A stretch of 53,289 bases of DNA from a virus (IMGVR_UViG_3300030101_004884:1-53289); one strand, 5' to 3'; shown: positions 1 through 10,664, counted from the stretch's first letter. Program-made: numbers and translations. The notes: generated from the sequence alone by a model not told the origin.

Positions 1-99
1 TCCGCTACTAAATACGGTTTTTACGTTTTTACCCTTGTTTAATACGTTCTCCAGTGCCTTAATCATGATGCTACCCCTTTAATGTTTTGAGCGATTTCT
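1..99. repeat. 99-bp terminal overlap, identical to 53191..53289 (circular assembly)
   Basis: Exact identity of the first and last 99 nt; the minus-strand operon reads through the junction. Confidence 0.97.
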
Positions 100-149
100 A
101 TCGCTAGTTTTTTTGTTGTTTCGATGATTTCTCTAATAAGTTTTTTCAT
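63..149 (-). CDS. 28-aa peptide MKKLIREIIETTKKLAIEIAQNIKGVAS (not in ORF track)
   Basis: ATGA overlap with the stop of the upstream ORF (146-149) and TGA/ATG overlap with the next gene (66 = 53256). Confidence 0.6.
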   Translation of the reverse strand: MKKLIREIIETTKKLAIEIAQNIKGVAS

Positions 150-334
150 GAATTCACCTCATCCAAGGGCGAGAAGAAACACTTCTGGCAGCGATGCATG
201 CCATTGAGGCTGTCAACGGTGCTGTGGGTACGAAAAGGTTTTTTACCCTTTGGTGTGCAATCCTCACACACCATAACCATATGGCCAATTTGGCCTGTTG
301 GGAGTTTTACTGCGATTTCATTAATTTTTTTCAT
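146..334 (-). CDS. small Zn-binding hypothetical protein (CEDC...CQKC)
   Basis: Start moved to MKKINE, which follows a purine-rich RBS (GGCAGGGA); two CxxC pairs. Confidence 0.6.
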   Translation of the reverse strand: MKKINEIAVKLPTGQIGHMVMVCEDCTPKGKKPFRTHSTVDSLNGMHRCQKCFFSPLDEVNS

Positions 335-447
335 AACTGATCCCTGCCTTCCTCTATTTTGTAACACTAAACCCAAGGTATTTACAACACTAACAACACG
401 AAAAACACGAAAAAGATTAAAGACGATGATAACGTGTTGAAATTTAA

Positions 448-744
448 TCATCTTTTAAAGTTTAAATTTCGAGTATCTCTATATCTGGTCTTTTTATAAT
501 CAGGATCTTCGTTTTTTTTCTCGACTCTAAACCCCTTTAGCTCAAATATTTCAAAAAAATTCGTCCCACAATCCTCACATGTCGTAAATAACTCTATACA
601 AGTGTTAGATTTTCGCTTAACAAACCGACTTCCTGGTGCCACCACAAAACGATAAGAACCCTTGTTTTCTCGGCCACATACAGGACATTTTATCTCGTCT
701 CGTTTAGCGTTTTTTCTGTATTCCTTTTGTGATAATTTTTTCAT
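448..744 (-). CDS. Zn-ribbon protein, paralog of 51443..51706
   Basis: MKKLSQK.Y...CPxCG...CEDCGT.F.E.F.L.G shared with the 51443 ORF; ATGA overlap with the upstream gene. Confidence 0.75.
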   Translation of the reverse strand: MKKLSQKEYRKNAKRDEIKCPVCGRENKGSYRFVVAPGSRFVKRKSNTCIELFTTCEDCGTNFFEIFELKGFRVEKKNEDPDYKKTRYRDTRNLNFKR

Positions 745-1193
745 GATAATCCCTCTTTTCTGCATCCCTTCCTACATCCTTCCCACTGACAATTTTCACC
801 ACGCCACCGGAGCCACTTACAGCGAACCTTTAGGAAATGGGCGCTGTCCAGCTCCTGATAAAAAGCACATAGCTCTAAAAGGCCATAAACGTCCTCTTGA
901 TCTAGTGTAAAGTCGTAGCCCCTGGAATGGAGGTCACGGTTAAAACCCCTCACTTTAGCGTGCAAAATGCCGATGATTTGATGTGACTCTAGACCCCTAG
1001 TAGGTTTAAAAAACGCGCTATAGGCTTCTGAGGGGCCTCCTAGAAAGCGAACAGCGCCATTAAAGCATAGCGTGAATTCGAGCATGTCTCCCTTGAGTAG
1101 TTTTTCCTTAAGCCACTTTTCTACTTTTAAGCCCCTGGCGATGGATTCTTTTTTCAATTCTTTCTCTACTTCTATGATTGTTTCTTTTTCCAT
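741..1193 (-). CDS. hypothetical protein, first gene of the leftward early operon
   Basis: 150-aa ORF with GAAGGAAG RBS; coupled to the next gene. Confidence 0.65.
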   Translation of the reverse strand: MEKETIIEVEKELKKESIARGLKVEKWLKEKLLKGDMLEFTLCFNGAVRFLGGPSEAYSAFFKPTRGLESHQIIGILHAKVRGFNRDLHSRGYDFTLDQEDVYGLLELCAFYQELDSAHFLKVRCKWLRWRGENCQWEGCRKGCRKEGLS

Positions 1194-1194
1194 G

Positions 1195-1435
1195 ATGTTT
1201 TTTCTTCCTTCTATTTGTTAAACCGTCTCAGTCTTTTAAAACTCGCAGTTCGTAATGATTTTTTTCTCTCACCTGTTAAACGATGCCAGTTATAGATTTC
1301 TCGCATTTGGTAGTCGTTTTTTTCACCTCTCATATACGAAACCAGCTCAAGTGTATTTTTCTGGCAGTTCGCAATGATTTTTTTTCGCTTCTACAAATAA
1401 AACGATTCTCACGTCATTTTCTGACAGTTTAATGT
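1195..1435. repeat. degenerate ~60-bp tandem repeat (about 4 units)
   Basis: CTSRCAKTT cores at 1242, 1300, 1361 and 1421; the first three are followed by T-tracts. Confidence 0.55.
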
Positions 1436-1487
1436 AAAAAAAAGCAATAAAGGATATGTAGGACTATAAGTAGCTGATTTTATTGAC

Positions 1488-1772
1488 GTTACAAAAGTAA
1501 CAAAACGAAAATAAAAATGTAACCGCTAAAAGTCTTTTGTTTTCAATACGTTAGGCTATAAATTGGGCCTGAGTTACAAAACACAAAAAATTTACCCTAC
1601 CTATATAGAGAATTGAATTATGGATGTGATCTGTGTTGGGTGGGAAATTTATTCTCAGTATATATGGTTTTGTTTGTAACTTTGTAACTCTATTATTTTT
1701 CTTAGTTAAGTGTCTCTAAATTAAAAGCTTTTTCGGTTACAACAAATTGTAACTCTTTTGTCGCCTTGTTAC
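1488..1772. other. candidate replication origin (GTTAC/GTAAC iteron-like pentamers around an AT-rich TATATA core)
   Basis: Nine pentamers (1488, 1497, 1519, 1573, 1676, 1684, 1736, 1749, 1768) in non-coding AT-rich DNA; IHF-like sites near 1467 and 1841. Confidence 0.45.
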
Positions 1773-1887
1773 CCTATTGATTTATAAGGGTTTTCTATTA
1801 TCAACCACACGGTCAATATAGGGTTGAAATGGCGCTCTTGTATGTGTTTGATATATAAGAACTTTTTAGGGCCTATTTTTAGCGTTT

Positions 1888-1902
1888 TGGCACGATTCTT
1901 GC
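1888..1902 (+). promoter_or_regulatory. sigma54 -24/-12 site TGGCACGATTCTTGC
   Basis: Matches TGGCAC-N5-TTGC with exact GG-N10-GC spacing. Confidence 0.8.
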
Positions 1903-2019
1903 GACACTGAACATGTTTTCAGCAATAACTGCGAAGATACGCGCCGATTTTTGCCATTTTGACAAACTTTTGCAGATGTATGGTATTTTTACCATATCGA
2001 TACGTGAATCCGGTTCACG

Positions 2020-2075
2020 AAAAAACTTTTAAAAGGGGGGGGTTGAAAAAAACTTTTAAAAGGGGGGGTCCCCCT
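2020..2075. repeat. two copies of the dispersed AAAACTTTTAAAAGGGGGG element
   Basis: Same motif and orientation at 48294, 51080 and 52162. Confidence 0.8.
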
Positions 2076-2093
2076 TCTCTGGCCTCGCTCGCC

Positions 2094-2233
2094 CGTCAGA
2101 ATTTTGACACGTCAGAATTTTGACACGTCAGATTTCTGGCGTCATTTTTCTGACACGTCAAATCACTGACGCGCCAGATTGTTGACACGTCAAATTTGTG
2201 GCGTCAAATCGATGACGCGCCAAAAAATTGGCG
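2094..2233. repeat. tandem array of nine palindromic CGYCA-N6-TGRCR sites
   Basis: Units of 14-16 bp, e.g. CGTCA GAATTT TGACA, CGTCA AATCAC TGACG, CGCCA AAAAAT TGGCG. Confidence 0.9.
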
Positions 2234-2268
2234 CTAGAAATTGCGAAATTCAAATTCTACTTTTTATA

Positions 2269-2284
2269 TGCAAATTTGGTGCCA
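2269..2284 (-). promoter_or_regulatory. sigma54 -24/-12 site TGGCACCAAATTTGCA
   Basis: Consensus match with GG-N10-GC spacing. Confidence 0.8.
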
Positions 2285-2522
2285 ATTATCGCTTCACCTC
2301 CCAATTATTTTTTCGCCTAATTCAATTATATATAGGGCAAAAAACAAGGTTTTAAGCCCCTTGAATTAGATCCTGGAATTAGATCCTAAATTGCCGCGTC
2401 AATCGGTGCAAATTGGGCAAAATTCAAAATATGATTTTTTATTTTTTACAATTATTTTTTAGCCTAAAATTAAAAGCCTTATTTTTCATCTGTTTATGCT
2501 TTTCTTTTTGTTGTTTTTTTTA

Positions 2523-2551
2523 TTGTTTTCATTGTTTAAAATGTTTATAAA
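2523..2551 (+). promoter_or_regulatory. sigma70-like promoter TTGTTT-17-TATAAA
   Basis: AT-rich sequence upstream; precedes the 2600 operon; spacer begins TCATTG, like other early promoters. Confidence 0.55.
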
Positions 2552-2599
2552 GAGATCACTCTTTAAGAGAATGAACACTAAAAAAAGAAGGGATCAAAA

Positions 2600-2860
2600 A
2601 TGAAAATAGAAATCAACGAGGATTGCAATATCTGCACCGATTGTCTTTTGTATCTGGTCAATGGCGAGGAACCACACAACGAGGATCCGCAGCACCCTTT
2701 TGATGGTACAGGCAACAATACAAAATATTTTTCGTTTTCTTTGAAGAGCGAAGAAACATTTTTTAGCCATACAAGGTGTGATAACTGCCTAAGGCCTTTG
2801 GCTGGTGATCGACACAATGGTGATTTAATAGCTTACAAGACCGAAAAAAAAGAAGGATAA
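2600..2860 (+). CDS. Cys-rich hypothetical early protein
   Basis: RBS AAGGGA; CxxC motifs (ICTDC, RCDNC). Confidence 0.75.
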   Translation: MKIEINEDCNICTDCLLYLVNGEEPHNEDPQHPFDGTGNNTKYFSFSLKSEETFFSHTRCDNCLRPLAGDRHNGDLIAYKTEKKEG

Positions 2861-2866
2861 AAAACA

Positions 2867-3202
2867 ATGAAAAAACTAAATAAAAAAGAAAAAGAGATAT
2901 TTGTAAAACTTGAGAGCCTTCACTTGATGAAGGCTGATCTTAAATCGTCTTTGGCGTCAATTGCGGCACAAATTGCAGCCTATGAATTGCAATTACAAAC
3001 CATTGATCAACGTAAGTTAATCAACGGTAAATTATGGCATAACGGAATTGAGTTATACACGTTTAAAAGAACAACGTGTAAACACAAGAGCGTAGCAATT
3101 GATCTTGTGGAACGTCACGGAATCCCACGGAAAGATCTTGAGGAAGCAATTGAAAAGCATTCAAAGACTAATCAATCATTAAAAACTAAATTAGCATTAT
3201 AG
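2867..3202 (+). CDS. hypothetical coiled-coil early protein
   Basis: RBS GAAGGA; operon spacing. Confidence 0.75.
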   Translation: MKKLNKKEKEIFVKLESLHLMKADLKSSLASIAAQIAAYELQLQTIDQRKLINGKLWHNGIELYTFKRTTCKHKSVAIDLVERHGIPRKDLEEAIEKHSKTNQSLKTKLAL

Positions 3203-3211
3203 GGGTTCAAA

Positions 3212-3445
3212 ATGAAAAAAACGTTAATTCATGTGACTAACGACGAAACGCAAGAAACCAAAACGTATAGGGTTGTAGGCATGACCCATAGCGGATCAAG
3301 GGGCTTGGAGTACCAATTAAGTCCTGATCAACCCTTCGACGGTTTGGTTCATAGCGTTTGCCATGCGCCACCGGATGGAGTTTTAAGGTTTAAGTCAAGT
3401 GGTAATACATACCGAATTGAACACGTTGAAAGGGGCATATCATGA
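3212..3445 (+). CDS. hypothetical early protein
   Basis: RBS AGGGG; ATGA overlap with the next gene. Confidence 0.7.
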   Translation: MKKTLIHVTNDETQETKTYRVVGMTHSGSRGLEYQLSPDQPFDGLVHSVCHAPPDGVLRFKSSGNTYRIEHVERGIS

Positions 3446-4242
3446 GACAGTCAGTAAGGATCGGCGCATATGGCGATCCTTTTGCAGTGCCTAAAAACAT
3501 ATGGGAAAAGCTTTTTAAGGGCAGATCAAAGATCAAGCATAGGAGAAAAGACCTACCCGATCTTGGTTGGATCTTATATCGTGGCCCGTCTATGTTTGAT
3601 CCTAAGACTGAGATCGTGTTGATAGCTACTCGCAATTCGAGAAACATTAAAACTGGTAACATGATCCAGTTATGGATCTTACTTGTGGACATAGCGCCAC
3701 ACGAAGCCACAAAGGAATTGAAAGCTATTTGTGGTGGCTGTTTATATCGGCACGATCTAGCCGACAAGGGCAAAGGTGGCTGTTATGTGTTAAGGCATAA
3801 CGCTCCCTTAAGCATCTGGCGATCTTTTCACTCTGGTAAATATTCAACCGATACCGATCAAGCTTTTGACTTCATAGCAGATCAGATCGATCGCTATGGA
3901 TACACGGGATATAGTGAAGGCTCAATTCGTTTCTTAAACAGTAGAATAAAAGAGAAAGCGCAAAACGCTGAATTTCTAGCGTCTAAAATTATGTTGTCGG
4001 CCAAGTCTCAAATTGAAGCCTTGGAATTACAGCGTAAAGGCTTTAAAACATTTCGACCCGTTGGTTCGCTTGACGAAATGATAGAAGGCGAAACGCTTTG
4101 CGAGTCGGACAAAAACGATCTTCAGTGTGAAGAGTGTCTTAAGTGTGACGCTAAAAACGGATCGATCGTTGTGCTTGCTCATGGGGCAAAAAAGAAAACT
4201 GTATTACATACTATTGGATCCCTAAAACGCGCAACCGCTTAA
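3442..4242 (+). CDS. conserved Cys-rich phage protein (DUF7227/Gp88-like, recalled from memory), apparently with permuted motif order
   Basis: Motifs GWILYRGPS, SRNIKTGNMIQLWIL, ICGGC, CYV, VRIGAYGDP, TGY, GFKTFR, CEECLKC and AHG. Confidence 0.7.
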   Translation: MRQSVRIGAYGDPFAVPKNIWEKLFKGRSKIKHRRKDLPDLGWILYRGPSMFDPKTEIVLIATRNSRNIKTGNMIQLWILLVDIAPHEATKELKAICGGCLYRHDLADKGKGGCYVLRHNAPLSIWRSFHSGKYSTDTDQAFDFIADQIDRYGYTGYSEGSIRFLNSRIKEKAQNAEFLASKIMLSAKSQIEALELQRKGFKTFRPVGSLDEMIEGETLCESDKNDLQCEECLKCDAKNGSIVVLAHGAKKKTVLHTIGSLKRATA

Positions 4243-4269
4243 GCCCTATCGCCTAACCCTAACAAAACG

Positions 4270-4295
4270 AGCCCCCTTTAAAGGGGGCTTTTTTT
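4270..4295 (+). terminator. intrinsic terminator of the 2600-4242 operon
   Basis: AGCCCCC-TTTAAA-GGGGGCT followed by a T run. Confidence 0.85.
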
Positions 4296-4303
4296 ATGCC
4301 TTG

Positions 4304-4411
4304 CGTTCGTCGTTCGTTCGTCGTTCGTCGTCCGTCGTTCGTTCGTCGTTCGTTCGTCGTCCGTCGTTCGTTCGTCGTTCGTCGTTCGTTCGTCGTTCGT
4401 CGTCCGTCGTT
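4304..4411. repeat. A-free CGT/CGTT/CGTC microsatellite, 30 CGT units
   Basis: Directly visible; 108 bp. Confidence 0.95.
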
Positions 4412-4433
4412 GAAAAAATCGATACCTTTTTTT

Positions 4434-4551
4434 TGGTCCTATACTTGCATTATGCAAGATCGGTGCCACTTTTTTGGCATGAACCTTGCAATAATGCAAT
4501 TACCATACCCGAACCAAATTCTGTTTTTGTTGGCATGCAAGTTCCGTGCCA
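4434..4551. promoter_or_regulatory. cluster of five sigma54 -24/-12 sites in both orientations
   Basis: +4434 TGGTCCTATACTTGCA; -4468 TGGCACCGATCTTGCA; +4475 TGGCATGAACCTTGCA; -4510 GGGTATGGTAATTGCA; -4551 TGGCACGGAACTTGCA; all have GG-N10-GC spacing. Confidence 0.8.
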
Positions 4552-4613
4552 GGCCCCCTACCACAACCCAGCGCCAAATTAAGCCCTGAAGGTATCCCAC
4601 CTTTGATTACATT

Positions 4614-4658
4614 AAAAAAGGCCGCCCTTTCAGACGACCCTAGTTGGCCCGACGTTTA
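4614..4658 (-). ncRNA. candidate ~45-nt small RNA
   Basis: Promoter GTGCTT-17-TATTAA (4693..4665), then terminator GGTCGTCT-GAAA-GGGCGGCC-TTTTTT (4639..4614), with no ORF between them. Confidence 0.4.
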
Positions 4659-4917
4659 TGTGGTTTAATACAGGCTCCAAACAATAAAAGCACAATCGAC
4701 AAGCTAGGCCAAGTTTTATTTTCTAGAAATTGCGCTTGCCCAAAAACTGATCGGCCAATTTACAAAAAAACAAATTTTAAGCTGTTTTTGTCAAGGGACA
4801 TTTAGCATCCCCCCTTATTTGTCCCTAGTCATAATCGTTATGCAAACAATAAAGACAATGTAGCTTTTATCGCTAATATATGTTGCAAAAACAGCATTAT
4901 GGACATATTATCTGCAC

Positions 4918-5017
4918 ATCACAAAAAAAGCAGCGGTTTTAACCCCTTCCTTTCCGCTGCTACTTCTTTTTTGTTTGGTAGTTTTCCTCCCCTTGTTCGC
5001 GCAGGGGGAGGTTTTTT
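4918..5017 (+). ncRNA. candidate ~100-nt small RNA with C/U-rich loop
   Basis: TTGCAA-17-TATTAT promoter (4883..4911), hairpin AGCAGCGG/CCGCTGCT (4929..4961), terminator 4986..5017. Confidence 0.5.
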
Positions 5018-5065
5018 ATGGCTTAAGTGCTTGCGCCTAAAGATCCTGTGTGATCTTATACGTTT

Positions 5066-5141
5066 AACACAAGACCCATGTGTTGCGGCGACTCCAGGTG
5101 AACGCTCCCCCAAAAAACCATCATCTGGGGTCGCTTCTTTT
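5066..5141 (+). ncRNA. candidate structured RNA or terminator with CTCCCCC loop
   Basis: Hairpin AACACA/TGTGTT, then a 14-bp stem (5088..5134, two G-U pairs) followed by TTCTTTT. Confidence 0.4.
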
Positions 5142-5159
5142 ATTGGGTAGGGAGTTTTT

Positions 5160-5372
5160 ATGAAGTTACTGGCTGGTGTCGTCGTGTTCGCATCAATTTT
5201 TGGCGCGATCCCTTTTTTGCTTTTCGCCCACCTTCCGGCTTATGCGGCGGTATCGATAAACCTTCTTGTATCAGGGTTGATATTGGGTTTGATGTCTAAT
5301 GCGTCGAAGGAACAAGAAAGACCAGCTAAGCCTCTCACCACCGAAGAACTTATTAGATTGATGAAGAGGTAG
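5160..5372 (+). CDS. small two-TM membrane protein
   Basis: RBS GGGAG; two hydrophobic segments. Confidence 0.7.
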   Translation: MKLLAGVVVFASIFGAIPFLLFAHLPAYAAVSINLLVSGLILGLMSNASKEQERPAKPLTTEELIRLMKR

Positions 5373-5377
5373 GCGTC

Positions 5378-5848
5378 ATGGAAAACCATGAAAGATTTTT
5401 AAGCCATCTTGATAAAAGCTCAGAGGCGGTTTTTGCAGCAGCAGCGTTTCTTCATAAAAAGGGATTGGATGTAAGGATAAACGCAACCCGACGTGCGTCT
5501 TCTCATTCTGAGTGGAAGAAATACAGAGATGATGGCGACATTTATGCATACGACAAAAAAGGCAATTCATACAGAGTTGAGGCCAAGGGTTTAAGTTGCG
5601 ATTTTACCTCCGTGCGGGATTGGAAATTTAAAGACTTCATGGTGTGTGCAAAGCATTCTTTTGACTCTGCATCCCCTAAGCCTTATGCGTATATTATCTT
5701 AAATAAAAACAAGACCCATGCGGCCATAGTCAGGTCGTCAACAAGTTCTTGCTGGGAGACTGTTTCAAGAAAAGACTCAAGGTATGATAATGTTGTGCAG
5801 GAATTTTACACATGCCCCATGGGAAGCATTGATTGGGTTAGTTTATAA
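5378..5848 (+). CDS. hypothetical protein, possible PD-(D/E)xK nuclease fold
   Basis: DDGD...VEAK pattern; RBS GAGGT. Confidence 0.65.
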   Translation: MENHERFLSHLDKSSEAVFAAAAFLHKKGLDVRINATRRASSHSEWKKYRDDGDIYAYDKKGNSYRVEAKGLSCDFTSVRDWKFKDFMVCAKHSFDSASPKPYAYIILNKNKTHAAIVRSSTSSCWETVSRKDSRYDNVVQEFYTCPMGSIDWVSL

Positions 5849-5862
5849 AAAAAGAGGTAGGC

Positions 5863-6573
5863 GTGAATGAGTTGGCACTTTTTGCAGGAGCAGGCGGAGG
5901 AATCCTGGGAGGGTCATTGCTTGGATGGCGCACCCTCGCGGCTGTTGAAATTAATCCCTTTTGCAGGCGAGTCCTGCTCGCAAGACAACGAGACGGATGC
6001 TTGCCCGAGTTCCCCATCTGGGATGACGTGTCCACCTTCGATGGTCGACCATGGCGTGGATACATCGACATCATCACCGGAGGGTTCCCGTGCCAGGACA
6101 TTAGCACAGCAGGAGCAGGCGCTGGCATTTCGGGCAAAAGGTCAGGGCTCTGGTCGGAAATGGCGCGGATATGCAGCGAGATTATGCCGAGATTCATATA
6201 TGTGGAAAATAGCCCAATGCTCACAGGACGTGGACTTGACCGAGTTCTCATGGATATGGCCGCAATGGGGTATGATGCGCGATGGGGTATGTTATCCGCA
6301 GCCGATACGGGCGCACTCCATAAGCGCAAGCGCATCTGGGTTTTGGCCAACACCAACGGTTTACGGAAACCACAACAGGAAGGGCGCGAGCAAGTATTCG
6401 GGCGACGGCTTGGCGACAGCGGTTCGGAAGAATGCGGAAGTCGGTGGCCCCCTGAACCCTCAGTGGGTCGAATGGCTCATGGGGTGGCCGATAGGGTGGA
6501 CAGACTTAAGGCCCTTGGAAATGGACAGGTTCCAAGAGTGGCGGCGTCAGCATTCTTAATGTTGAAAAAATAG
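5863..6573 (+). CDS. C5-cytosine DNA methyltransferase, alpha-type polypeptide (motifs I-VIII and X)
   Basis: LFAGAGG, GGFPCQ, VENSP, HKRKRIW and RLKALGNGQVP. Confidence 0.92.
   Translation: MNELALFAGAGGGILGGSLLGWRTLAAVEINPFCRRVLLARQRDGCLPEFPIWDDVSTFDGRPWRGYIDIITGGFPCQDISTAGAGAGISGKRSGLWSEMARICSEIMPRFIYVENSPMLTGRGLDRVLMDMAAMGYDARWGMLSAADTGALHKRKRIWVLANTNGLRKPQQEGREQVFGRRLGDSGSEECGSRWPPEPSVGRMAHGVADRVDRLKALGNGQVPRVAASAFLMLKK
5867..6559 (+). CDS. nested +1-frame methyltransferase partner polypeptide (TRD/motif IX-like)
   Basis: 230-aa ORF entirely inside the MTase gene; carries WPTP and LNPQWVEWLMGWPIGWT, the segment absent from the main frame. Confidence 0.75.
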   Translation: MSWHFLQEQAEESWEGHCLDGAPSRLLKLIPFAGESCSQDNETDACPSSPSGMTCPPSMVDHGVDTSTSSPEGSRARTLAQQEQALAFRAKGQGSGRKWRGYAARLCRDSYMWKIAQCSQDVDLTEFSWIWPQWGMMRDGVCYPQPIRAHSISASASGFWPTPTVYGNHNRKGASKYSGDGLATAVRKNAEVGGPLNPQWVEWLMGWPIGWTDLRPLEMDRFQEWRRQHS

Positions 6574-6673
6574 CCTGCTCCCATCACAGACCTGCTGCTC
6601 ACCATCGAGCAACCCACCCTCCATATGGCGGCTCGTCAGCCTACCGGATCACAACCAGGGACTTCATTTGGTA

Positions 6674-7843
6674 TTAATTACAGTTCGTCGAAAAGAAGTC
6701 GAGAAGATCGTCAATCATCCAGACCGAGTATCCTAGAAAAAATATGGTTCCTCCCGTTGGTATGCCTATTTGCTCATATTCAGCAACATAATTAGGCTTA
6801 ATAACTGAATGAACAATGATACCAGAAGCAATACATGCCGACGTGGCCTCTTCAAGCGCCATGCTTTGCGCTGACTGGGGCTCTTCGTCGGTGAAGACAA
6901 GGAGATGTCTTTCTGCGTCTTGTCTCCAGGTGATTTCTGACGAGGAACAGACTTCATGGATGGCATCAATACCTGGCTCAAGGCCTCCTCCAATATTCGT
7001 AGCATTTATAATTTCTCCTTGGAATGTCGTGCCATCCACAAGGTCGGTGATAATCCTCATGGTTGCGTATCCAAATATTCTTTGTTCGTGCCTGGGTCCT
7101 GGAAAGACCGCTGCGCCGAACCGAGTTTCAGTGTCATTCATGGCTCCGGCTACGGTATGCGTTGTTGTTATTGCTTCGTTGAAAAGCGAGTCCATAGAGC
7201 CGGAACCGTCTATGATAAAAAATATGTCAATTTTATCAAAAAGATCTTCATCGATAAGGCCATCGCAATCATTGTCAAGACCGTCGCATATCTCCGTCGT
7301 CGGCGTTTTTTCGTGCAAGCACATTTCTTGAGCATTAACACAGTCTATCACCCCTGCCCTGCATTCGCCGAAAGCCAGCGTTTCAGGATTTCCAGTATAG
7401 CAAAGCTCCAAAGAAAGATTGTTGTCAACCAGACCATCGCAATCATCGTCGAGCCCATTGCAAACTTCGTCCACGCCTTCTTCTCTTCCTCTACAAACTC
7501 TTTGTCCTTCATCGCACACCTCCGTGCCAGCGTTACAAATACCTAAATTGGAACCACAGGCTTGTCCGGCCCACTCCTCGGTAAGGTTGTTATCAATTTC
7601 TCCATCGCAATCATCGTCGATCTGGTTACACAGCTCAGGGACGGGCAGTGTTTGGCCTTGGCAATTCACTACGATGTCGTTTTCATCACAAATCGTTACG
7701 CCGACCCCACAAGGTCCATTGCCTGCCGTTCCAGGGGGGCCAGCGTAACAGGGGAGATTGCAAGCCTTTGAAACCATCGCGATGTCTTCATCACATCCAG
7801 CCAAAGACAATAAAACCAATAAAGACAACACGGCTTTGTTCAT
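6674..7843 (-). CDS. lipoprotein with Cys/Asp-rich MopE-like repeats and a C-terminal vWA domain
   Basis: Lipobox LAGC; three ExC(N/D)xxD(D/N)DCDGx(I/V)D repeats; MIDAS DGSGS and FTDE. Confidence 0.85.
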   Translation of the reverse strand: MNKAVLSLLVLLSLAGCDEDIAMVSKACNLPCYAGPPGTAGNGPCGVGVTICDENDIVVNCQGQTLPVPELCNQIDDDCDGEIDNNLTEEWAGQACGSNLGICNAGTEVCDEGQRVCRGREEGVDEVCNGLDDDCDGLVDNNLSLELCYTGNPETLAFGECRAGVIDCVNAQEMCLHEKTPTTEICDGLDNDCDGLIDEDLFDKIDIFFIIDGSGSMDSLFNEAITTTHTVAGAMNDTETRFGAAVFPGPRHEQRIFGYATMRIITDLVDGTTFQGEIINATNIGGGLEPGIDAIHEVCSSSEITWRQDAERHLLVFTDEEPQSAQSMALEEATSACIASGIIVHSVIKPNYVAEYEQIGIPTGGTIFFLGYSVWMIDDLLDFFSTNCN

Positions 7844-8094
7844 TAAACACCCATTCGATCCAGTAGGCTGTCCACAAGACCCCTTGTTGCGCCTGCCATG
7901 TTCGCCAGCTCGTAAAGCTCTTGTTTGCTAATAAATCCGCGTTGATACACGCCAATGGCGTAAAAGAAAAGCTTTGCGCGATCTTCATCACCGTTGAAAT
8001 ACATATCAACAACGTTCTGCATGGGTCTGTATGATTTAGCTTCAAGGTCTAAAATGCGCTCAAGCTCATATATTTTTTCTTTTATATCTATCAT
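7843..8094 (-). CDS. hypothetical protein
   Basis: Start moved to MIDIK, downstream of the terminator; stop/start overlap with the lipoprotein gene. Confidence 0.6.
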   Translation of the reverse strand: MIDIKEKIYELERILDLEAKSYRPMQNVVDMYFNGDEDRAKLFFYAIGVYQRGFISKQELYELANMAGATRGLVDSLLDRMGV

Positions 8095-8105
8095 TTTGCG
8101 CCCAT

Positions 8106-8144
8106 AAAAAAACCGACCCGTAGGCACACGCCAGTCAGGTCGGT
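8106..8144 (-). terminator. intrinsic terminator
   Basis: ACCGACC...GGTCGGT stem followed by a T run on the minus strand. Confidence 0.55.
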
Positions 8145-8171
8145 CAAGACAAAAGGTTTTTAAAATTTATC

Positions 8172-8480
8172 TTATATCATGTAATCGGGCAAGCCTTTGC
8201 CGTCATGGGGCTCATAATATCTTTCACGCATACCCAAATCGGAGACAGCCCTGATGCGATCCTTTGAGACTGCCATTACTTTTCTTATGTGTTTTTGAGA
8301 CTTGCCTTTTCTGTTGTATTCGGCAATTCTGTTGCCCTCGGTAAGGTATCTTCTTATTTTTGCGGCAGGAATCTTTAGTCTAACGGCTATAGACAATATG
8401 CCAATGCCTTCGTTATATAGCTTAATAATGTCTTCGCATGGAAGTTCAAATGCGCTATCGAGTTGGCTTCCTAATTTCAA
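8172..8480 (-). CDS. HTH-like hypothetical protein, divergent from TerS
   Basis: IIKLYNEGIGILSIAVRLKIPAAKIRRYL helix-turn-helix pattern; AGGAGG RBS before a TTG start. Confidence 0.65.
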   Translation of the reverse strand: MKLGSQLDSAFELPCEDIIKLYNEGIGILSIAVRLKIPAAKIRRYLTEGNRIAEYNRKGKSQKHIRKVMAVSKDRIRAVSDLGMRERYYEPHDGKGLPDYMI

Positions 8481-8510
8481 TTTGTCCTCCTTTTATGATA
8501 AGTAACCAGT

Positions 8511-8990
8511 ATGACTGATATTTTAAGTTTACGCAACGGTGTTGCTCAAAGAACGACCGCAAAAAATGTTTTAAAGCTGAGAAAGATGGGCTTAGACGCA
8601 CAGCAGATTTCTGGCGAGCTTGATATGCCGCTTGACCGCGTTAAGAACATCATTTCAAATGCATTGAAGGCTCTCGCAAAAGAGATGAAGGGTCAAGCAG
8701 AGCAGATTAGGTCTTTAGAGCTAACGCGCCTAGATGAGCTTCAGACCGCTATCTGGGCAGACTGTATGGATGGCAAACTTACCGCTATTGATCGCGTATT
8801 AAAGATCATGGAGCGCAGATCTAAGTTGGTTGGTCTGGATGCGCCTGATCGACTTGATATTAAGGCAGACATGAAGCTTGAGCATATGAAAGAGGCAAAA
8901 GAGCGTTTGATGTCTAAGATTTTGGATATGGTGCCACAGGAAGAAGAAGAGGTGGTGGCCGAACTCCCTGCGCCCGAGCTTGAGGACTAA
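8511..8990 (+). CDS. terS: terminase small subunit
   Basis: N-terminal HTH; LELTRLDEL...AIDRVLKIMERRSKLVGLDAP signature; lies upstream of TerL. Confidence 0.8.
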   Translation: MTDILSLRNGVAQRTTAKNVLKLRKMGLDAQQISGELDMPLDRVKNIISNALKALAKEMKGQAEQIRSLELTRLDELQTAIWADCMDGKLTAIDRVLKIMERRSKLVGLDAPDRLDIKADMKLEHMKEAKERLMSKILDMVPQEEEEVVAELPAPELED

Positions 8991-9238
8991 AAGCACTCCC
9001 ACCTTAAAACGCCAAACTCATCTCTGTGAAATTCGCCTTCTTCGTAAAATGTGTGATTAATCCCCTCAACGGTTACATCGAAGAATGCTTTTTGAAGCTC
9101 ATAGAACGAAGTTATCTGCACTTCCCTAAAAAACCCAAGTCCAAATTCGTCCTCAAAAGCGCAAAGCTCTAGAAGCAGGCACATGGGTTCGCCGTTAAGG
9201 TCTTCGTCTATTTTAACCAGTGAATATCGCCATTCCAC
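8987..9238 (-). CDS. antisense 83-aa hypothetical protein between terS and terL
   Basis: GGAGG RBS 8 nt before a GTG at 9238; fills the otherwise empty gap. Confidence 0.55.
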   Translation of the reverse strand: MEWRYSLVKIDEDLNGEPMCLLLELCAFEDEFGLGFFREVQITSFYELQKAFFDVTVEGINHTFYEEGEFHRDEFGVLRWECF

Positions 9239-9311
9239 CCTTGCGGCCTCCTGTTTTCTTGTTTTATCATATAATGCTTTGATTACGTTATTAAATGTTT
9301 TATATTTAGCC

Positions 9312-10664
9312 ATGGCAACAAGAGTAAAAAAACCTAAAAAAGAAATGCCTTCGACCATGGAGAAAATCCAGGCGCTACCAGAAAAAACCAAACAGGAAAT
9401 ACTCGCGTCCCTGAGCGTTGAGCAGTTGGCCGAAATGGATCATATGTGGGAAATGTGGGCACGCCCCAAGCAGCTTCCTCCAAAGGGAGACTGGTTTGTT
9501 TGGCTGATTTGCGCTGGCCGTGGTTTCGGCAAGACCCGAAGCGGCGCTGAGTTTGTTCGCATGATGGTGGAAAGCGGTCGCGCTAAAAGAGTTGCACTGG
9601 TTGGCCGTACCGCAGCTGATGTTCGTGATGTTATGATTGAGGGCGAATCTGGCATTTTAGCTTGTTGCCCAAAATGGAACAGGCCTGAGTATATTATTAC
9701 AAAACGCAGGCTCGTATGGCCAAACGGTGCGATTGCTACTACTTATTCTTCCCAGGAGCCTGATATGCTTCGTGGTCCCCAGCATGATCTTGCTTGGTGT
9801 GACGAACTTGCAGCATGGCAGTACGATGAAACCTTTGATCACTTAAAGCTAGGTCTGCGTTTGGGGCGTAAGCCAAGAATGTGTATCACCACAACACCTA
9901 AGCCTAACATGTTGATGCGACAGTTATTAAAGTCACAAGGGGTCCATGTAACCACTGGATCGACCTATGAGAACAAAAGCAACTTGTCTAACAACTTCTT
10001 TCAAGAGGTGGTTGGAAGGTATGAGGGTACGTCCCTGGGCCGTCAAGAGATTTACGGCGAACTTTTGGAGGACCTTCCTGGCTCCTTGTGGCGATTTTCT
10101 ACCATCGAGAGGTGTCGCGTTAGCAAGTCGCCCGAGTTCAAGCGCGTGGTGATTGGTGTTGACCCAGCCATTAAATCAGATAAGGATGAGACAGGCATTT
10201 CAGTCTGCGGCATTGGCGAAGATAACAAGGCGTATGTTATAGCAGATCTATCTTGTAGAGAAAGCCCTCAAAACTGGGCGAGAATTGCAATTAACGCTTT
10301 TTTTGAGTATGGTGCTGATCGTATAGTGGCGGAATCCAACCAGGGTGGTGAAATGGTGACTTCGGTTATAAAAACCGCAAACCCCAATGTGCCAGTTAAA
10401 GCTGTTTGGGCTACTAAATCAAAAGCGTCTCGCGCTGAACCCATTTCTGCTTTGTATGAGCAGGGTCGGGTTCACCATATCGGAATCTTTGAGGACCTTG
10501 AAGACCAAATGGTGACTTATCAGCCAGGACAACGAAAATCTCCAGATCGACTGGATGCTATGGTTCATGCGTTAACAGAGTTAATGCTGAAGCGAAAAGC
10601 ACCTTTGGATTTGGCAAAATTTAATTGGGGATTCGGTACTCGCGATAACCCCTGGAGACTGTAG
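9312..10664 (+). CDS. terL: terminase large subunit
   Basis: Walker A GRGFGKT, Walker B AWCDE, nuclease motifs GVDPA and DRLDA; start moved to MATRV. Confidence 0.95.
   Translation: MATRVKKPKKEMPSTMEKIQALPEKTKQEILASLSVEQLAEMDHMWEMWARPKQLPPKGDWFVWLICAGRGFGKTRSGAEFVRMMVESGRAKRVALVGRTAADVRDVMIEGESGILACCPKWNRPEYIITKRRLVWPNGAIATTYSSQEPDMLRGPQHDLAWCDELAAWQYDETFDHLKLGLRLGRKPRMCITTTPKPNMLMRQLLKSQGVHVTTGSTYENKSNLSNNFFQEVVGRYEGTSLGRQEIYGELLEDLPGSLWRFSTIERCRVSKSPEFKRVVIGVDPAIKSDKDETGISVCGIGEDNKAYVIADLSCRESPQNWARIAINAFFEYGADRIVAESNQGGEMVTSVIKTANPNVPVKAVWATKSKASRAEPISALYEQGRVHHIGIFEDLEDQMVTYQPGQRKSPDRLDAMVHALTELMLKRKAPLDLAKFNWGFGTRDNPWRL

What the first reader, a model, noticed from the sequence alone, without database searches (positions are those of the whole stretch)
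2369..4220. GATC-saturated island covering exactly one early operon
Seen (hand count): about 32 GATC sites in about 1.85 kb, about 20 of them in the 800-bp gene 3442..4242, including GATCAGATCGATC (3880) and GATCGATC (4160). For comparison there are about 4 in 1..2360 and about 5 in the 1-kb capsid gene; my rough compositional expectation is 6-7. Established: GATC clusters have methylation-dependent roles at E. coli oriC (SeqA) and at the P1 pac site, whereas many phages avoid GATC. Inference: this segment is selected to carry dense Dam-type methylation or to bind a GATC reader, for packaging or entry control, to shield first-entering DNA, or as a decoy. The beta-class MTase at 42520 is a candidate writer.
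Basis: partly seen in the sequence, partly recalled or inferred. Interest (0 to 1): 0.8.

Follow-up and report, generated by a model that had tools for sequence, protein, structure and literature searches.

The report
GATC-saturated early cassette of a phage
A two-kilobase gene cassette in an uncultured phage carries five times the usual number of GATC sites, forced in codon by codon, and related phages do the same at the same place with unrelated genes, which points to a selected DNA mark whose reader is still unknown.

Summary
There are exactly 32 GATC in 2369..4220 against about 6.5 expected, and 20 of them lie in gene 3442..4242.

It survives every codon control. Within-gene synonymous permutation reached the count in 0 of 5000 tries. 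Under genome codon usage z is 5.7. Asp is GAT 8:1 before a C-starting codon but 1:6 elsewhere.

The excess is concentrated in one gene, not spread evenly over the operon.

Two related 51-kb phages lack these genes. In the same slot, between conserved flanks, they carry non-homologous cassettes, one with an ArdA-like gene. Those cassettes are also GATC-enriched (0 of 3000 permutations each).

Homologues of the 266-aa protein (DUF7227/GP88, function unknown) are not GATC-rich in general: 0 of 80 metagenome loci reach 12/kb. Mydovirus phages of Klebsiella and E. coli do have an independent 6-kb island peaking on their homologue.

Best reading: a selected, DNA-level GATC array over a swappable, probably first-expressed counter-defence cassette, most likely read through adenine methylation.

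Gyrase targeting, recombination or mismatch repair, foreign composition and pac/ori remain rivals.

The parts
1948..2070 (.). Conserved left flank of the slot. It holds two palindrome-like boxes (TTTTTGCCATTTTGACA at 1948..1964 and GGTATTTTTACC at 1982..1993) and two copies of a 22-nt repeat (2020..2041, 2047..2068).
   Evidence: It matches G1rc 52..126 and G2 1494..1666, while the DNA to its right does not match. A combined pattern scan of IMG/VR found only the two known relatives.
2078..2242 (.). Array of short direct repeats (CGTCA/TGACRCG type, spacing 16/46 nt), iteron-like. The relatives carry different repeats at this position.
   Evidence: Families D2 and D3. G1 and G2 show other repeats at the same place. 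Function unknown.
2327..2337 (+). TATATATAGGG box at the head of the cassette. It is conserved in all three phages. Reading it as promoter-like is an inference.
   Evidence: It is the only exact copy in the window. The same box occurs in G1rc at about 583 and in G2 at about 1934.
2369..4220 (.). The GATC island: 32 sites, made up of 4 in the leader and 2 + 4 + 2 + 20 in the four genes.
2359..2384 (+). 13-nt tandem duplication. Each copy ends in a GATC (2369, 2382).
   Evidence: Family D11; sequence read.
2600..2860 (+). Gene of 86 aa, Cys-rich (two CxxC pairs), function unknown. 2 GATC.
   Evidence: ORF. PHROG phrog_3034 (unknown function) E 9.5e-8. No Pfam or NCBIfam match.
2867..3202 (+). 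Gene of 111 aa, function unknown. 4 GATC, all as GAT-Cxx.
3212..3445 (+). Gene of 77 aa, function unknown. 2 GATC.
3442..4242 (+). Gene of 266 aa in the DUF7227/GP88 (phrog_2554) family of phage proteins. Function unknown; conserved Cys cluster. It holds 20 GATC spread over all three frames (8, 4, 8).
   Evidence: phrog_2554 E 1.2e-35. Pfam DUF7227 scores 21.1 bits, below the 27-bit cut-off. AF2 model pLDDT 89.7. BFVD matches to DUF7227 and GP88 proteins; Atlas agrees. No match among solved structures. GATC statistics.
4264..4295 (.). Bidirectional terminator-like hairpin that closes the island.
   Evidence: I5. After 4217 the next GATC sites are 4458 and then 4749.
4293..4425 (.). Tandem repeat (CGTTCGTCGT..., period 11/14) between the terminator and the right flank.
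   Evidence: Family D1.
4550..4783 (.). Conserved right flank of the slot.
   Evidence: Window 4550..4613 matches G1rc 2648..2711 and G2 4364..4427. Window 4613..4783 matches both at 73-75% nt identity.
42520..43221 (+). Beta-class N6/N4 DNA methyltransferase (DPPF motif). It is conserved in both relatives. A candidate writer of unknown specificity.
   Evidence: PF01555 at 64 bits; phrog_67. The best solved relative is 5hek at E 4e-9, aligned over the SAM-binding region only. Window 41834..44023 aligns to G1 and G2 at 72-74% nt identity.
5863..6573 (+). C5 cytosine DNA methyltransferase 1.6 kb right of the island. A second possible writer of unknown specificity. It is present in G1 and absent from G2.
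   Evidence: PF00145 E 1.1e-29; phrog_363. 96% nt identity to G1, and no match for 5852..6430 in G2.

Best explanation
The island is a selected, cis-acting array of bare GATC sites. It lies over one swappable gene cassette at a fixed place in this phage lineage.

The cassette sits between conserved flanks, behind a conserved TATATATAGGG box and in front of a terminator. In one relative it holds an ArdA-like anti-restriction gene. I therefore read the slot as the phage's first-expressed counter-defence cassette (inferred).

Whatever gene sits there is pushed towards GATC in two ways:
- by context-dependent synonymous choice (GAT before C, ATC after G);
- by amino-acid replacements at variable positions.

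The most likely purpose is to carry a dense adenine-methylation mark, G(m6A)TC. The mark would be written by the phage's own N6-adenine methyltransferase or by a host Dam-type enzyme. It would be read by a dimeric GATC or hemimethyl-GATC binder of the SeqA kind. The transcriptional state of the cassette would then depend on whether the DNA is the incoming, fully marked molecule or newly replicated, half-marked or unmarked DNA. That would amount to an epigenetic early-to-late switch.

Shown: the enrichment, its codon-level and protein-level signatures, its presence at the same place in relatives with unrelated genes, and its independence from the gene family.

For: (1) Selection on the tetranucleotide.
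- Gene 3442..4242 has 20 GATC. Within-gene synonymous permutation gives 8.4 +/- 1.9 (0 of 5000 reach 20). Genome codon usage given the protein predicts 7.4 +/- 2.2 (z 5.7; the next gene in the genome has z 1.7).
- 20 of 32 GATC-compatible dipeptides are realised, against 159 of 981 in the rest of the genome.
- Asp is GAT:GAC 8:1 before a C-starting codon and 1:6 otherwise (p 0.009). Ile is ATC 8:2 after a G-ending codon and 1:10 otherwise (p 0.002). The rest of the genome shows no such link for Asp (p 0.73) and the opposite trend for Ile.

(2) The protein itself has shifted. It has 12.0 compatible dipeptides per 100 aa. Its 47-49% identical relatives have 9.0-9.5, and 56 distant homologues have 6.6 +/- 1.4 (maximum 10.0).

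(3) DNA-level reading. Sites fall in all three frames (8, 4, 8) and there is no preference in the flanking bases. GATC is the only word in the top 5 of 256 in all four islands under the codon-aware null, with ranks 5, 1, 5 and 3. In the window the four words above it come from the tandem-repeat ORF.

(4) Position rather than sequence.
- Relatives G001 and G002 (capsid protein 92-94% identical, 65-80% nt identity over most of the genome) have no homologue of the 266-aa gene. They have no DNA match across window 2071..4549.
- Their cassettes are nevertheless enriched. G1 has 37 sites in 391..2372, which includes the densest 800-bp window of that genome (20 sites). G2 has 27 sites in 1679..4044.
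- Within-gene permutation gives 26 vs 13.5 and 19 vs 10.8, with 0 of 3000 reaching the observed count in each. The rest of each genome shows no excess: 149 vs 162, 169 vs 170, 174 vs 160.
- The three cassettes differ in G+C (0.39, 0.57, 0.59).

(5) Not a property of the gene family. Across 80 metagenome loci with homologues, the median density in the homologue is 2.8/kb, the maximum 10.6/kb, and 0 of 80 reach 12/kb. Caulobacter phage S2B has 1 site and Pseudoalteromonas phage KB12-38 has 0.

(6) Counter-defence context.
- The densest gene in the G1 slot passes the Pfam ArdA threshold (28.2 bits against a cut-off of 27).
- The S2B homologue lies 1.2 kb from the genome end, upstream of the RNA polymerase gene.
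- The KB12-38 homologue directly follows an annotated antirestriction gene.

(7) GATC is tolerated where other palindromes are purged. 22 of 64 palindromic hexamers are absent from the genome (521 observed against 856 expected), yet GATC has O/E 1.04. An N6-adenine-type MTase is conserved in all three phages.

(8) Precedent from papers.
- SeqA binding follows local GATC density, and SeqA-bound genes keep raised GATC density across genomes (PMC2912659, section 11 read).
- Intragenic GATC clusters have been described in E. coli and Salmonella (PMC493266, passages read).

(9) Independent islands occur in phages of Dam-proficient hosts.
- Klebsiella phage Iguana_ER37 has 71 sites in 119,001..125,000. 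The codon-aware z is 7.3, and 0 of 3000 permutations reach the observed count.
- E. coli phage AV124 has 65 sites in 5.6 kb against 4.4/kb outside.
- That these hosts are Dam-proficient is general knowledge, not a result from any call.
Against: - No methylation data exist for this phage.
- The specificity of the 42520 MTase is unknown. It is not homologous to either MTase of the Klebsiella phage.
- No SeqA-, MutH- or DpnI-like domain was found in the phage proteins scanned. About 45 of roughly 75 ORFs were scanned, so the search is incomplete.
- The host is unknown, so a Dam/SeqA background cannot be assumed.
- GATC spacing shows no helical phasing (periods 10, 10.5 and 11 give P 0.10, 0.14 and 0.29). 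Only the 3-nt codon period appears.
- Early expression of the cassette was not shown.
- None of the four window proteins matches a known anti-defence family.
- In G2 the enrichment is weaker and more diffuse. Its densest 800-bp windows (12 sites) begin at 551..1001, left of the slot's conserved flank.
- Purifying selection on individual sites was not demonstrable. Between the two Mydovirus phages 56 of 63 island GATC are conserved, against 246 of 295 control tetramers (p 0.34). Between the G1 and G2 leaders 5 of 6 are shared, at 81.5% identity.
- The three small upstream genes are not individually significant.
Confidence: 0.42

Rival explanations
1. Gyrase landing zone. GATC is favoured as the four-base stagger of DNA gyrase cleavage. 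A dense array in the most heavily transcribed, first-used operon would recruit gyrase. Gyrase would then supercoil the incoming DNA or relieve the positive supercoils of early transcription. Methylation would later tune this down.
For: In S. pneumoniae GATC makes up 21.2% of 1517 mapped gyrase cleavage sites. 92.7% of the sites lie in coding genes and track high transcription. GATC methylation lowers both cleavage and supercoiling (PMC12630141, abstract and Discussion read).

Gyrase is universal, so this reading needs no Dam host. The enzyme is two-fold symmetric, which fits a palindrome. The island is coextensive with a transcription unit.

The first three flank positions are slightly G+C-richer in islands (0.54-0.59 against a 0.49 mean). 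Flank G+C shows power at period 10 just above the 95th percentile of random positions (2.78 against 2.16).
Against: - The period-10 signal is absent at 10.5 and 11 (0.44, 0.51) and is uncorrected for three tests.
- No consistent gGATCc context appears.
- The GATC preference is measured under fluoroquinolones in one Gram-positive species. The paper says the E. coli motif is similar but not identical.
- A strong gyrase site is normally one long site of about 130 bp, not 30 short ones (recalled, not from a call).
Confidence: 0.15
2. Compositional hitch-hiking. The cassettes were acquired from donors whose DNA is GATC-rich throughout, and they have not yet been ameliorated. On this reading nothing in this phage reads the sites.
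For: - The slot is clearly a place of gene replacement, with foreign G+C (0.39, 0.57, 0.59 against 0.45-0.49 for the genomes).
- Capsid-gene relatives in high-G+C MAG contigs carry 9-12 GATC/kb throughout (L103, L104, L106, L107).
- Other words also rank high in the G1, G2 and Klebsiella-phage islands (CGCC, GGCC), showing different codon usage there.
Against: - Within-gene permutation keeps each gene's own codon pool and still gives an observed/permuted ratio of 1.7-2.0 in all four islands. The GATC-rich high-G+C relatives give 0.99-1.39.
- Second-order Markov O/E is 1.6-2.35 in the islands but 0.9-1.17 in those relatives.
- The window's island has low G+C, so a high-G+C donor cannot explain it.
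- Three different donors would all have to be GATC-rich.
- The noncoding leaders also carry GATC.
- Among the DUF7227/GP88 homologues sampled, 0 of 80 metagenome loci reach 12/kb.
Confidence: 0.12
3. Recombination or repair device. GATC is the entry site for MutH-type nicking, or for a GATC nickase. A dense array would raise mismatch-repair efficiency or block homeologous exchange in the cassette. Alternatively it would seed breaks that drive cassette swapping.
For: - The slot is the most variable place in the three genomes and is bounded by conserved flanks suited to homologous exchange.
- The phage encodes a RecE-like exonuclease, a RecT-like annealase and a RuvC-like resolvase.
- Avoidance of GATC as a way for a phage to escape methyl-directed mismatch repair is discussed for phiX174 (PMC5014478; only the start of the abstract was seen in the listing).
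Against: - No GATC-specific nuclease was found in the phage proteins scanned.
- Exchange needs only the flanks, not sites inside the cassette.
- Selection for evolvability is weak.
- MutH-type repair is limited to some Gammaproteobacteria (recalled), and the host is unknown.
Confidence: 0.08
4. Packaging site or replication origin. A methylation-gated pac site of the P1 kind, or an oriC/P1 oriR-like origin with iterons, an A+T-rich stretch and GATC sites.
For: - Iteron-like repeats (2078..2242) and a very A+T-rich leader (2385..2599) lie directly left of the genes.
- 56% of island GATC have a neighbour within 31 bp, against 18% elsewhere.
- GATC clusters at oriC, P1 oriR and P1 pac are textbook cases (recalled, not from a call).
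Against: - The sites spread over 1.85 kb of coding DNA, with no repeated hexamer or heptamer context.
- The iterons are not conserved in relatives, although the primase-helicase is partly conserved.
- The terminase genes lie 5 kb away. A more pac-like mini-cluster (4 GATC in 58 bp, 8790..8847) sits in the gene just upstream of TerL.
- The record is a circular assembly (99-nt end overlap), so physical ends are unknown.
Confidence: 0.08
5. RNA-level motif. GAUC in the early transcript is the target of an endoribonuclease or pairs with the GAUC in the 3' tail of 16S rRNA. It would thereby set the life or the translation of early mRNAs.
For: - The island coincides with a transcription unit.
- In all three phages a GATC lies 4-6 nt before the first start codon, inside an AAGGA-like ribosome-binding stretch.
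- T4 RegB cutting GGAG in early mRNAs is a precedent for motif-directed early mRNA decay (recalled).
Against: - The enriched word is a palindrome and the classic DNA methylation site. An RNA motif has no reason to be palindromic.
- There is no extension towards the anti-Shine-Dalgarno complement in the flanks.
- GATC sites also lie upstream of the conserved box in G1 (391, 423, 442) and in G2 (1679..1805).
Confidence: 0.04

Closest known systems
Intragenic GATC clusters of E. coli and Salmonella (Henaut 1996; Riva 2004) and GATC-dense SeqA-bound genes
   Same: These are GATC clusters inside coding sequences, kept by selection and proposed to act through methylation state and SeqA. The window contains a stretch meeting the published cluster rule: 3856, 3880, 3885 and 3889 are four sites with a mean spacing of 11 bp (the rule was read in PMC493266). 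In E. coli, SeqA binding follows local GATC density (PMC2912659, section 11).
   Different: - The published clusters are a few sites within about 60 bp of chromosomal housekeeping genes. Here 32 sites cover a whole 1.85-kb phage cassette.
- Here the feature is tied to a genomic position whose gene content changes between relatives.
- Host Dam and SeqA are unknown for this phage.
GATC clusters at oriC, P1 oriR and the P1 pac site
   Same: Dense GATC in a mobile or replicating element, with methylation-dependent control (recalled, not from a call).
   Different: Those are compact arrays (about 150-250 bp) with repeated contexts, placed next to an origin or a terminase gene. This island is ten times longer, lies in coding DNA, has no shared flank context and is 5 kb from the terminase gene.
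First-entering or first-expressed anti-restriction regions (T7 gene 0.3, the T5 first-step-transfer region, leading regions of conjugative plasmids with ardA)
   Same: - A variable block of small genes at a fixed place. It includes an ArdA-like gene in relative G1.
- Family homologues lie next to the genome end in a T7-like phage and next to an antirestriction gene in another phage.
- T5-like phages are restriction-sensitive only for sites in the terminal repeats (PMC10644984, abstract). Leading regions are enriched in anti-defence genes (PMC11541004 and PMC13478746, seen only in search listings).
   Different: Such regions are expected to lose restriction-type sites, whereas this one accumulates a palindromic site. 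Entry order and timing are not known here. The search listing shows 0 occurrences of GATC in PMC13478746.
Genome-wide GATC excess of cluster B3 mycobacteriophages
   Same: Unexplained over-use of GATC, about four-fold, in phage DNA (PMC4841201, passages read).
   Different: There the excess is genome-wide and accompanied by GGATCC. Here it is local: the rest of the genome has O/E about 0.9 and GGATCC is under-represented (3 against 10.3 expected).
DUF7227 / GP88 (phrog_2554) phage proteins
   Same: The 266-aa product matches phrog_2554 (E 1.2e-35), matches predicted structures of DUF7227 and GP88 proteins, and shares the conserved Cys columns.
   Different: - The Pfam DUF7227 score (21.1 bits) is below the 27-bit cut-off.
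- In this lineage the 'RIGAYGDP' segment is N-terminal, whereas it is mid-protein in other members.
- The family's function is unknown, and no solved structure matches: Foldseek finds none at E <= 1e-3 and the best VIA-align Z is 2.4.

Membership tests
Henaut/Riva intragenic GATC cluster | At least four GATC inside a coding sequence with mean spacing under 18 bp. The screen starts from pairs under 8 bp apart or triplets within 62 bp. | tested here: met
   Sites 3856, 3880, 3885 and 3889 (spacings 24, 5, 4) lie in gene 3442..4242. The rule was read in PMC493266.
Henaut/Riva intragenic GATC cluster | The organism methylates GATC (Dam), and the cluster is conserved in the orthologous gene of a related genome. 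| tested here: not met
   The relatives have no orthologue of the gene, so conservation here is of position, not of the gene. Whether the host has Dam cannot be tested because the host is unknown.
SeqA-type sequestration array (oriC-like) | Pairs of GATC no more than about 31 bp apart. | tested here: met
   56% of island sites have a neighbour within 31 bp, against 18% elsewhere in the genome. The 31-bp limit is recalled, not taken from a call.
SeqA-type sequestration array (oriC-like) | Sites phased on one face of the helix. | tested here: inconclusive
   Pooled pair distances from the four islands give P 0.10, 0.14 and 0.29 for periods 10, 10.5 and 11.
SeqA-type sequestration array (oriC-like) | Hemimethylated state after replication, and a SeqA protein in the host or the phage. 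| not testable with these tools
   No methylome is available and the host is unknown. No SeqA domain was found in the phage proteins scanned, and the scan was incomplete.
P1-type methylation-gated pac site | A compact set of GATC-bearing repeats flanking a cleavage point, in or beside the small terminase gene. | tested here: not met
   The sites are spread over 1.85 kb with no common flank. TerL is at 9183..10664.
ArdA-containing anti-restriction cassette | The cassette encodes an ArdA-family protein. | tested here: not met
   Window: none of the four proteins matches ArdA or any named anti-defence family. Relative G1: ArdA at 28.2 bits against a cut-off of 27, but phmmer found no match to a solved ArdA. 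The PADLOC library was not searched, and it holds defence systems rather than anti-defence proteins.
First-expressed (early) operon | Transcribed first after infection. | not testable with these tools
   The sigma-70-type consensus scan found no more hits than shuffled sequence (10 against 8.9 +/- 3.2). The sequencing-run tool was unreachable in 8 tries.
DUF7227 / GP88 protein family | Profile match at the curated threshold. | tested here: inconclusive
   Pfam DUF7227 scores 21.1 bits against a 27-bit cut-off. However, phrog_2554 gives E 1.2e-35. BFVD structural matches reach E 2e-9, and named DUF7227 rows reach E 1.3e-3.
GATC-specific (Dam-like or DpnA-like) adenine methyltransferase, for gene 42520 | N6-adenine MTase fold and motifs. 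| tested here: met
   PF01555 at 64 bits. The DPPF motif is aligned to DPPY of 5hek.
GATC-specific (Dam-like or DpnA-like) adenine methyltransferase, for gene 42520 | Recognises GATC. | not testable with these tools
   Only the SAM-binding region aligns to solved enzymes of differing specificity. NCBIfam scores (40-44 bits) are far below the equivalog cut-offs.

The most novel reading that the evidence does not exclude
A position-specific 'GATC landing strip'. In several unrelated phage lineages (this uncultured 53-kb phage group and the Mydovirus phages of enterobacteria) the block of accessory or counter-defence genes is kept saturated with GATC whatever genes it holds. This would happen because a GATC reader (adenine methylation plus a hemimethyl binder, or gyrase) gates the expression or processing of the incoming genome. 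Any gene that lands in the slot would then be recoded, down to its amino acids, to carry the mark. That would be a cis-acting epigenetic layer of phage early-gene control that has not been described.
Probability: 0.3. Interest if true: 0.8.

Novelty: new variant of a known kind. Interest (0 to 1): 0.62.

Why it matters
Phage genomics usually treats short palindromes as things to be avoided. This genome has purged 22 of 64 palindromic hexamers, yet it loads one palindrome five-fold into one cassette. It does so at the cost of codon choice and of amino-acid sequence.

Relatives do the same at the same place with different genes. That is hard to explain without a reader of GATC acting in cis on that stretch.

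Either way the question is now directly testable, because the same kind of island exists in cultivable phages of E. coli and Klebsiella, where dam, seqA, mutH and gyrase tools exist. It also gives a simple sequence signature, a codon-aware local GATC excess, that may help to find early or counter-defence cassettes in uncultured phages.

Tried and rejected
**Gene-family property.** Rejected. 80 metagenome loci with homologues have a median of 2.8 GATC/kb in the homologue, and none reaches 12/kb. Phages S2B and KB12-38 have 1 and 0 sites.

**Extended motif** (BamHI, BclI, BglII, PvuI or HIP1-like). Rejected, because the flanks show no preference.

**Helical phasing.** None found.

**Purifying selection on single sites.** Not demonstrable.

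**Search for closer relatives carrying the same gene.**
- IMG/VR protein scan: none.
- DNA pattern of the conserved flank: only the two known relatives.
- VWA-protein alignment scan: one 5.3-kb fragment that stops short of the slot.
- The protein collection does hold 93-94% identical proteins (P0001, P0002).

**Host assignment.** Failed. Two genome-contig scans gave only 38-53% identical capsid genes in MAGs of unrelated phyla.

**Function of the 266-aa protein.**
- The first AF2 model was poor (pLDDT 57.7).
- The second used 61 sequences: 27 of the 31 collection proteins and 33 of the 80 loci. They were picked by hand, after dropping rows with partial coverage or an in-frame stop. It gave pLDDT 89.7.
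- Foldseek against PDB found nothing at E <= 1e-3. VIA-align against 48,161 chains gave a best Z of 2.4.
- BFVD and the Atlas gave only DUF7227/GP88 proteins of unknown function.

**Distant relative G003** (81% complete). No island and no homologue of the 42520 MTase. This is one data point only.

**Klebsiella phage.** Only record positions 1..50,000 and 95,001..143,187 were examined. The middle 45 kb was not examined.

**Proteins of the Klebsiella-phage island.** 9 were scanned against Pfam, with no family above threshold.

**Supplements and earlier findings.** Supplementary files of papers were not opened.

**Not-in-print claim.** It rests. These searches found GATC clusters in chromosomes, a genome-wide excess in B3 mycobacteriophages, and no local phage island.

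Full report
**What the record is.** The window is a whole 53,289-bp virus record. It has a 99-nt overlap between its ends, so it is a circular assembly with arbitrary coordinates. G+C is 45% and there are no tRNA genes. It encodes:
- a large terminase (9183..10664), a portal/protease fusion and a major capsid protein (15680..16657);
- a RecE/RecT-like pair, a helicase, a DUF927 primase-helicase, SSB and a RuvC-like resolvase;
- a sigma factor;
- three methyltransferase-like genes: C5 at 5863..6573, beta-class N6/N4 at 42520..43221, and DOT1-like at 48729..49367.

No close relative exists among 50,697 deposited phage records.

**The observation.**
- 32 GATC start in 2369..4217, and 20 of them lie in gene 3442..4242;
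- 4 lie in 1..2360;
- 5 lie in the capsid gene.

The expectation is 6.4-6.5, or 13.6 under a second-order Markov model that already absorbs the inflated GAT and ATC counts. GATC is the most enriched of 256 tetramers. The best equal-sized window elsewhere has 15 sites, and none of 2000 random placements reached 32 (largest 27). Per gene, 3442..4242 has 25 sites/kb and no other gene exceeds 12/kb.

**Codon controls.** Three were run.

(a) Permuting synonymous codons within the gene keeps the protein and the gene's own codon pool. It gives 8.4 +/- 1.9, with a maximum of 16 in 5000 tries against 20 observed.

(b) Drawing codons from the rest of the genome, given the protein, gives 7.4 +/- 2.2, so z is 5.7. 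The next gene in the genome has z 1.7. 20 of 32 GATC-compatible dipeptides carry the site, against 159 of 981 elsewhere.

(c) Codon choice depends on context. Asp is GAT 8:1 when the next codon starts with C and 1:6 otherwise. Ile is ATC 8:2 after a G-ending codon and 1:10 otherwise. The rest of the genome shows nothing of the kind for Asp, and the opposite trend for Ile.

The protein has also moved. It has 12.0 compatible dipeptides per 100 residues. Its 47-49% identical relatives have 9.0-9.5, and 56 distant homologues have 6.6 +/- 1.4. Most GATC-bearing dipeptides sit where those relatives have incompatible residues.

Sites use all three frames and have no flank preference. The target is therefore the bare tetranucleotide in DNA. 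The three small upstream genes are only mildly raised and are not individually significant.

**Anatomy.** From left to right:
- a conserved flank (1948..2070);
- iteron-like repeats (2078..2242);
- a TATATATAGGG box (2327..2337);
- a 13-nt duplication carrying two GATC;
- a very A+T-rich leader;
- four same-strand genes (2600..4242);
- a bidirectional terminator-like hairpin (4264..4295);
- a tandem repeat (4293..4425);
- a conserved right flank (4550..4783).

No GATC occurs between 1628 and 2369. After 4217 the next are 4458 and 4749. The island fits the unit from the box to the terminator.

**Relatives.** A capsid-protein scan of IMG/VR found two 51-kb records, G001 and G002. Their capsid proteins are 94% and 92% identical to the window's. 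Smaller or more distant contigs also turned up.

G001 and G002 align to the window at 65-80% nt identity over most of the genome, but not across 2071..4549. They have no homologue of the 266-aa gene: 0 of 5 records searched had one, and two of those records are at least 90% complete.

The flanks are conserved, so the same slot holds different cassettes. These cassettes are GATC-dense too.
- G1 has 37 sites in 391..2372 (reverse-complement coordinates). This includes the densest 800-bp window of that genome (20 sites) and a 186-aa gene with 15 sites.
- G2 has 27 sites in 1679..4044.
- Codon-aware z for the slot genes is 4.9, 6.1 and 4.4 in the window, G1 and G2. The share of compatible dipeptides realised is 45%, 54% and 43%, against 16-20% elsewhere.
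- Within-gene permutation gives 28 vs 13.9, 26 vs 13.5 and 19 vs 10.8, with 0 of 3000 reaching the observed count in each. Two of the G2 ORFs overlap by 86 nt.
- The rest of each genome shows no excess under the same test.

G2 is the weakest case. Its raised zone is diffuse (about 36 sites from 1013 to 4044), and its densest windows start left of the conserved flank.

The G1 and G2 leaders are homologous (81.5% identity) and share 5 of 6 GATC positions. That is suggestive but not significant.

A much more distant relative, G003 (capsid protein 44% identical, 81% complete), has no island and no homologue of the 42520 MTase.

**Gene content.** None of the four window proteins matches a named function.

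The 266-aa protein belongs to the virus-only DUF7227/GP88 group:
- phrog_2554 at E 1.2e-35;
- Pfam DUF7227 below its cut-off;
- BFVD and Atlas matches.

A good model (pLDDT 89.7 with 61 sequences) has no counterpart among solved structures. Foldseek finds none at E <= 1e-3 and the best VIA-align Z is 2.4. That shows neither that the fold is new nor what the protein does.

The densest gene in G1 passes the Pfam ArdA threshold narrowly (28.2 against 27). phmmer finds no match to a solved ArdA.

Family homologues sit 1.2 kb from the end of a T7-like Caulobacter phage, upstream of its RNA polymerase gene. In a Pseudoalteromonas phage a homologue directly follows an annotated antirestriction gene.

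This is why I read the slot as an early counter-defence cassette. It remains an inference.

**Is it the gene family or the donor?**

Not the family. Across 80 metagenome loci with homologues, the median is 2.8 GATC/kb in the homologue, the maximum is 10.6/kb, and 0 of 80 reach 12/kb. In 421 kb of those and other loci, no 800-bp window of the 80 metagenome phage loci exceeds 10 sites.

A donor effect is harder to dismiss. Capsid relatives in high-G+C MAG contigs carry 9-12 GATC/kb throughout. There, however, the count follows trinucleotide usage (Markov O/E 0.9-1.17), and the observed/permuted ratio is 0.99-1.39. The four islands give 1.6-2.35 and 1.7-2.0 respectively. The window's island is also low in G+C (0.39).

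**An independent case.** One of three cultured phages I inspected for the homologue has an island. Klebsiella phage Iguana_ER37 carries 71 GATC in 119,001..125,000, against about 4-5/kb elsewhere in the 98 kb examined. The codon-aware z is 7.3, and the peak gene is the homologue, with 14 of 19 possible sites.

E. coli phage AV124, of the same genus (Mydovirus), has the same island: 65 sites in 5.6 kb against 4.4/kb outside. Between the two phages 56 of 63 island sites are conserved, against 246 of 295 control tetramers (p 0.34).

Its MTases are unrelated to the window's 42520 enzyme.

The peak falls on the same family in both lineages. This may simply reflect that it is the longest gene in a block where the family commonly resides.

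**Restriction background.** The genome lacks 22 of 64 palindromic hexamers (521 observed against 856 expected). CCGG, CTAG and GTAC have O/E 0.32-0.40, yet GATC is at 1.04. GATC is thus tolerated, or protected, in a phage under strong restriction pressure.

**Mechanism.** I commit to a selected DNA-level array read through adenine methylation. The phage's N6-adenine-type MTase or a host Dam-type enzyme would be the writer. The effect would be to tie cassette expression to the replication state of the DNA.

Confidence is 0.42. Confidence that the enrichment is a selected cis feature of some kind is about 0.8.

Precedents:
- SeqA binding follows GATC density (PMC2912659, section 11).
- Intragenic GATC clusters exist in enterobacteria (PMC493266, passages).
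- SeqA is listed among the regulators of lambda pR (PMC2777414, passages). The requirement for downstream GATC is known to me only from a title in that paper's reference list.
- Lambda DNA is about half methylated, because replication outruns Dam (PMC10644984, passage).

Against this reading: there is no methylome, no assigned writer, no reader found, the host is unknown, there is no phasing, and no proof of early timing.

The strongest rival came from the literature search. Gyrase cleaves preferentially at GATC in transcribed genes of S. pneumoniae, and methylation lowers that cleavage (PMC12630141, abstract and Discussion). My test for the flanking G+C periodicity of gyrase sites was inconclusive.

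**Novelty.** GATC clusters as such are known. What I did not find in six full-text searches is a kilobase-scale, codon- and residue-shaping island bound to a replaceable phage cassette and conserved by position rather than by sequence. I file it as a new variant of a known kind.

Noticed in passing
whole window; also G001 and G002: Extreme palindrome avoidance. 22 of 64 palindromic hexamers are absent (521 observed against 856 expected); G1 lacks 12 and G2 lacks 15. CCGG, CTAG and GTAC have O/E 0.32-0.40 while GATC is at 1.04. CGATCG occurs 3 times against 10.3 expected, and 2 of those 3 copies lie inside the island.
   Followed up: partly
window 5863..6573: The C5 methyltransferase gene is overlapped along its whole length by a second open frame (5867..6559, 230 aa, no Pfam match). 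The same pair of frames occurs in G1. This stretch is 96% identical to G1, against 65-80% elsewhere, and G2 lacks it. There is no GATC in 5378..6573.
   Followed up: partly
window 8790..8847: Four GATC within 58 bp (spacings 14, 14, 29) inside gene 8511..8990 (phrog_645, weak HTH), just upstream of the large terminase gene. One of the four is shared by all three phages and the others by two of the three. This is a more pac-like cluster than the island.
   Followed up: partly
window 4293..4425: A tandem repeat of CGTTCGTCGT-type units (periods 11 and 14) lies right after the island's terminator. G1 and G2 have proline-rich, low-complexity G+C-rich DNA at the same place.
   Followed up: no
window 2078..2242; G1rc about 500..570; G2 1700..1800: Each phage has its own set of direct repeats just upstream of the conserved TATATATAGGG box. 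The window has iteron-like TGACRCG units. G1 has three CTGCACACAT units. G2 has a 41-bp duplication carrying a GATC.
   Followed up: no
G2 (L010) 1013..1321: Nine GATC in 310 bp of A+T-rich DNA lie left of the conserved flank, outside the slot as I defined it. This region contains the densest windows of that genome.
   Followed up: no
window 3442..4242 (protein): In this lineage (and in P0001-P0004) the conserved 'RIGAYGDP' segment is at the N-terminus. In other DUF7227/GP88 homologues it sits in the middle of the protein. This looks like a circular-permutation-type rearrangement.
   Followed up: no
window 48729..49367 (-), 49832..50677 (-), 6674..7843 (-): Three unusual genes: a DOT1-like SAM methyltransferase, a papain-family cysteine protease, and a Cys-rich VWA protein with a MopE-type metal-binding motif. 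The VWA protein is 55% identical in both relatives.
   Followed up: no
OR472445.1 119,001..125,000; OR352954.1 (L113 11900..17500): Mydovirus phages of Klebsiella and E. coli carry a 5.6-6 kb GATC island (about 11.7/kb against 4.4/kb) over small hypothetical genes. The peak is on the DUF7227/GP88 homologue.
   Followed up: partly
L020 (Pseudoalteromonas phage KB12-38): GATC is strongly avoided there (6 sites in 12.7 kb, 0.5/kb against 3.7/kb expected). The DUF7227/GP88 homologue at 6001..6654 of the locus is not annotated as a gene in that record.
   Followed up: no
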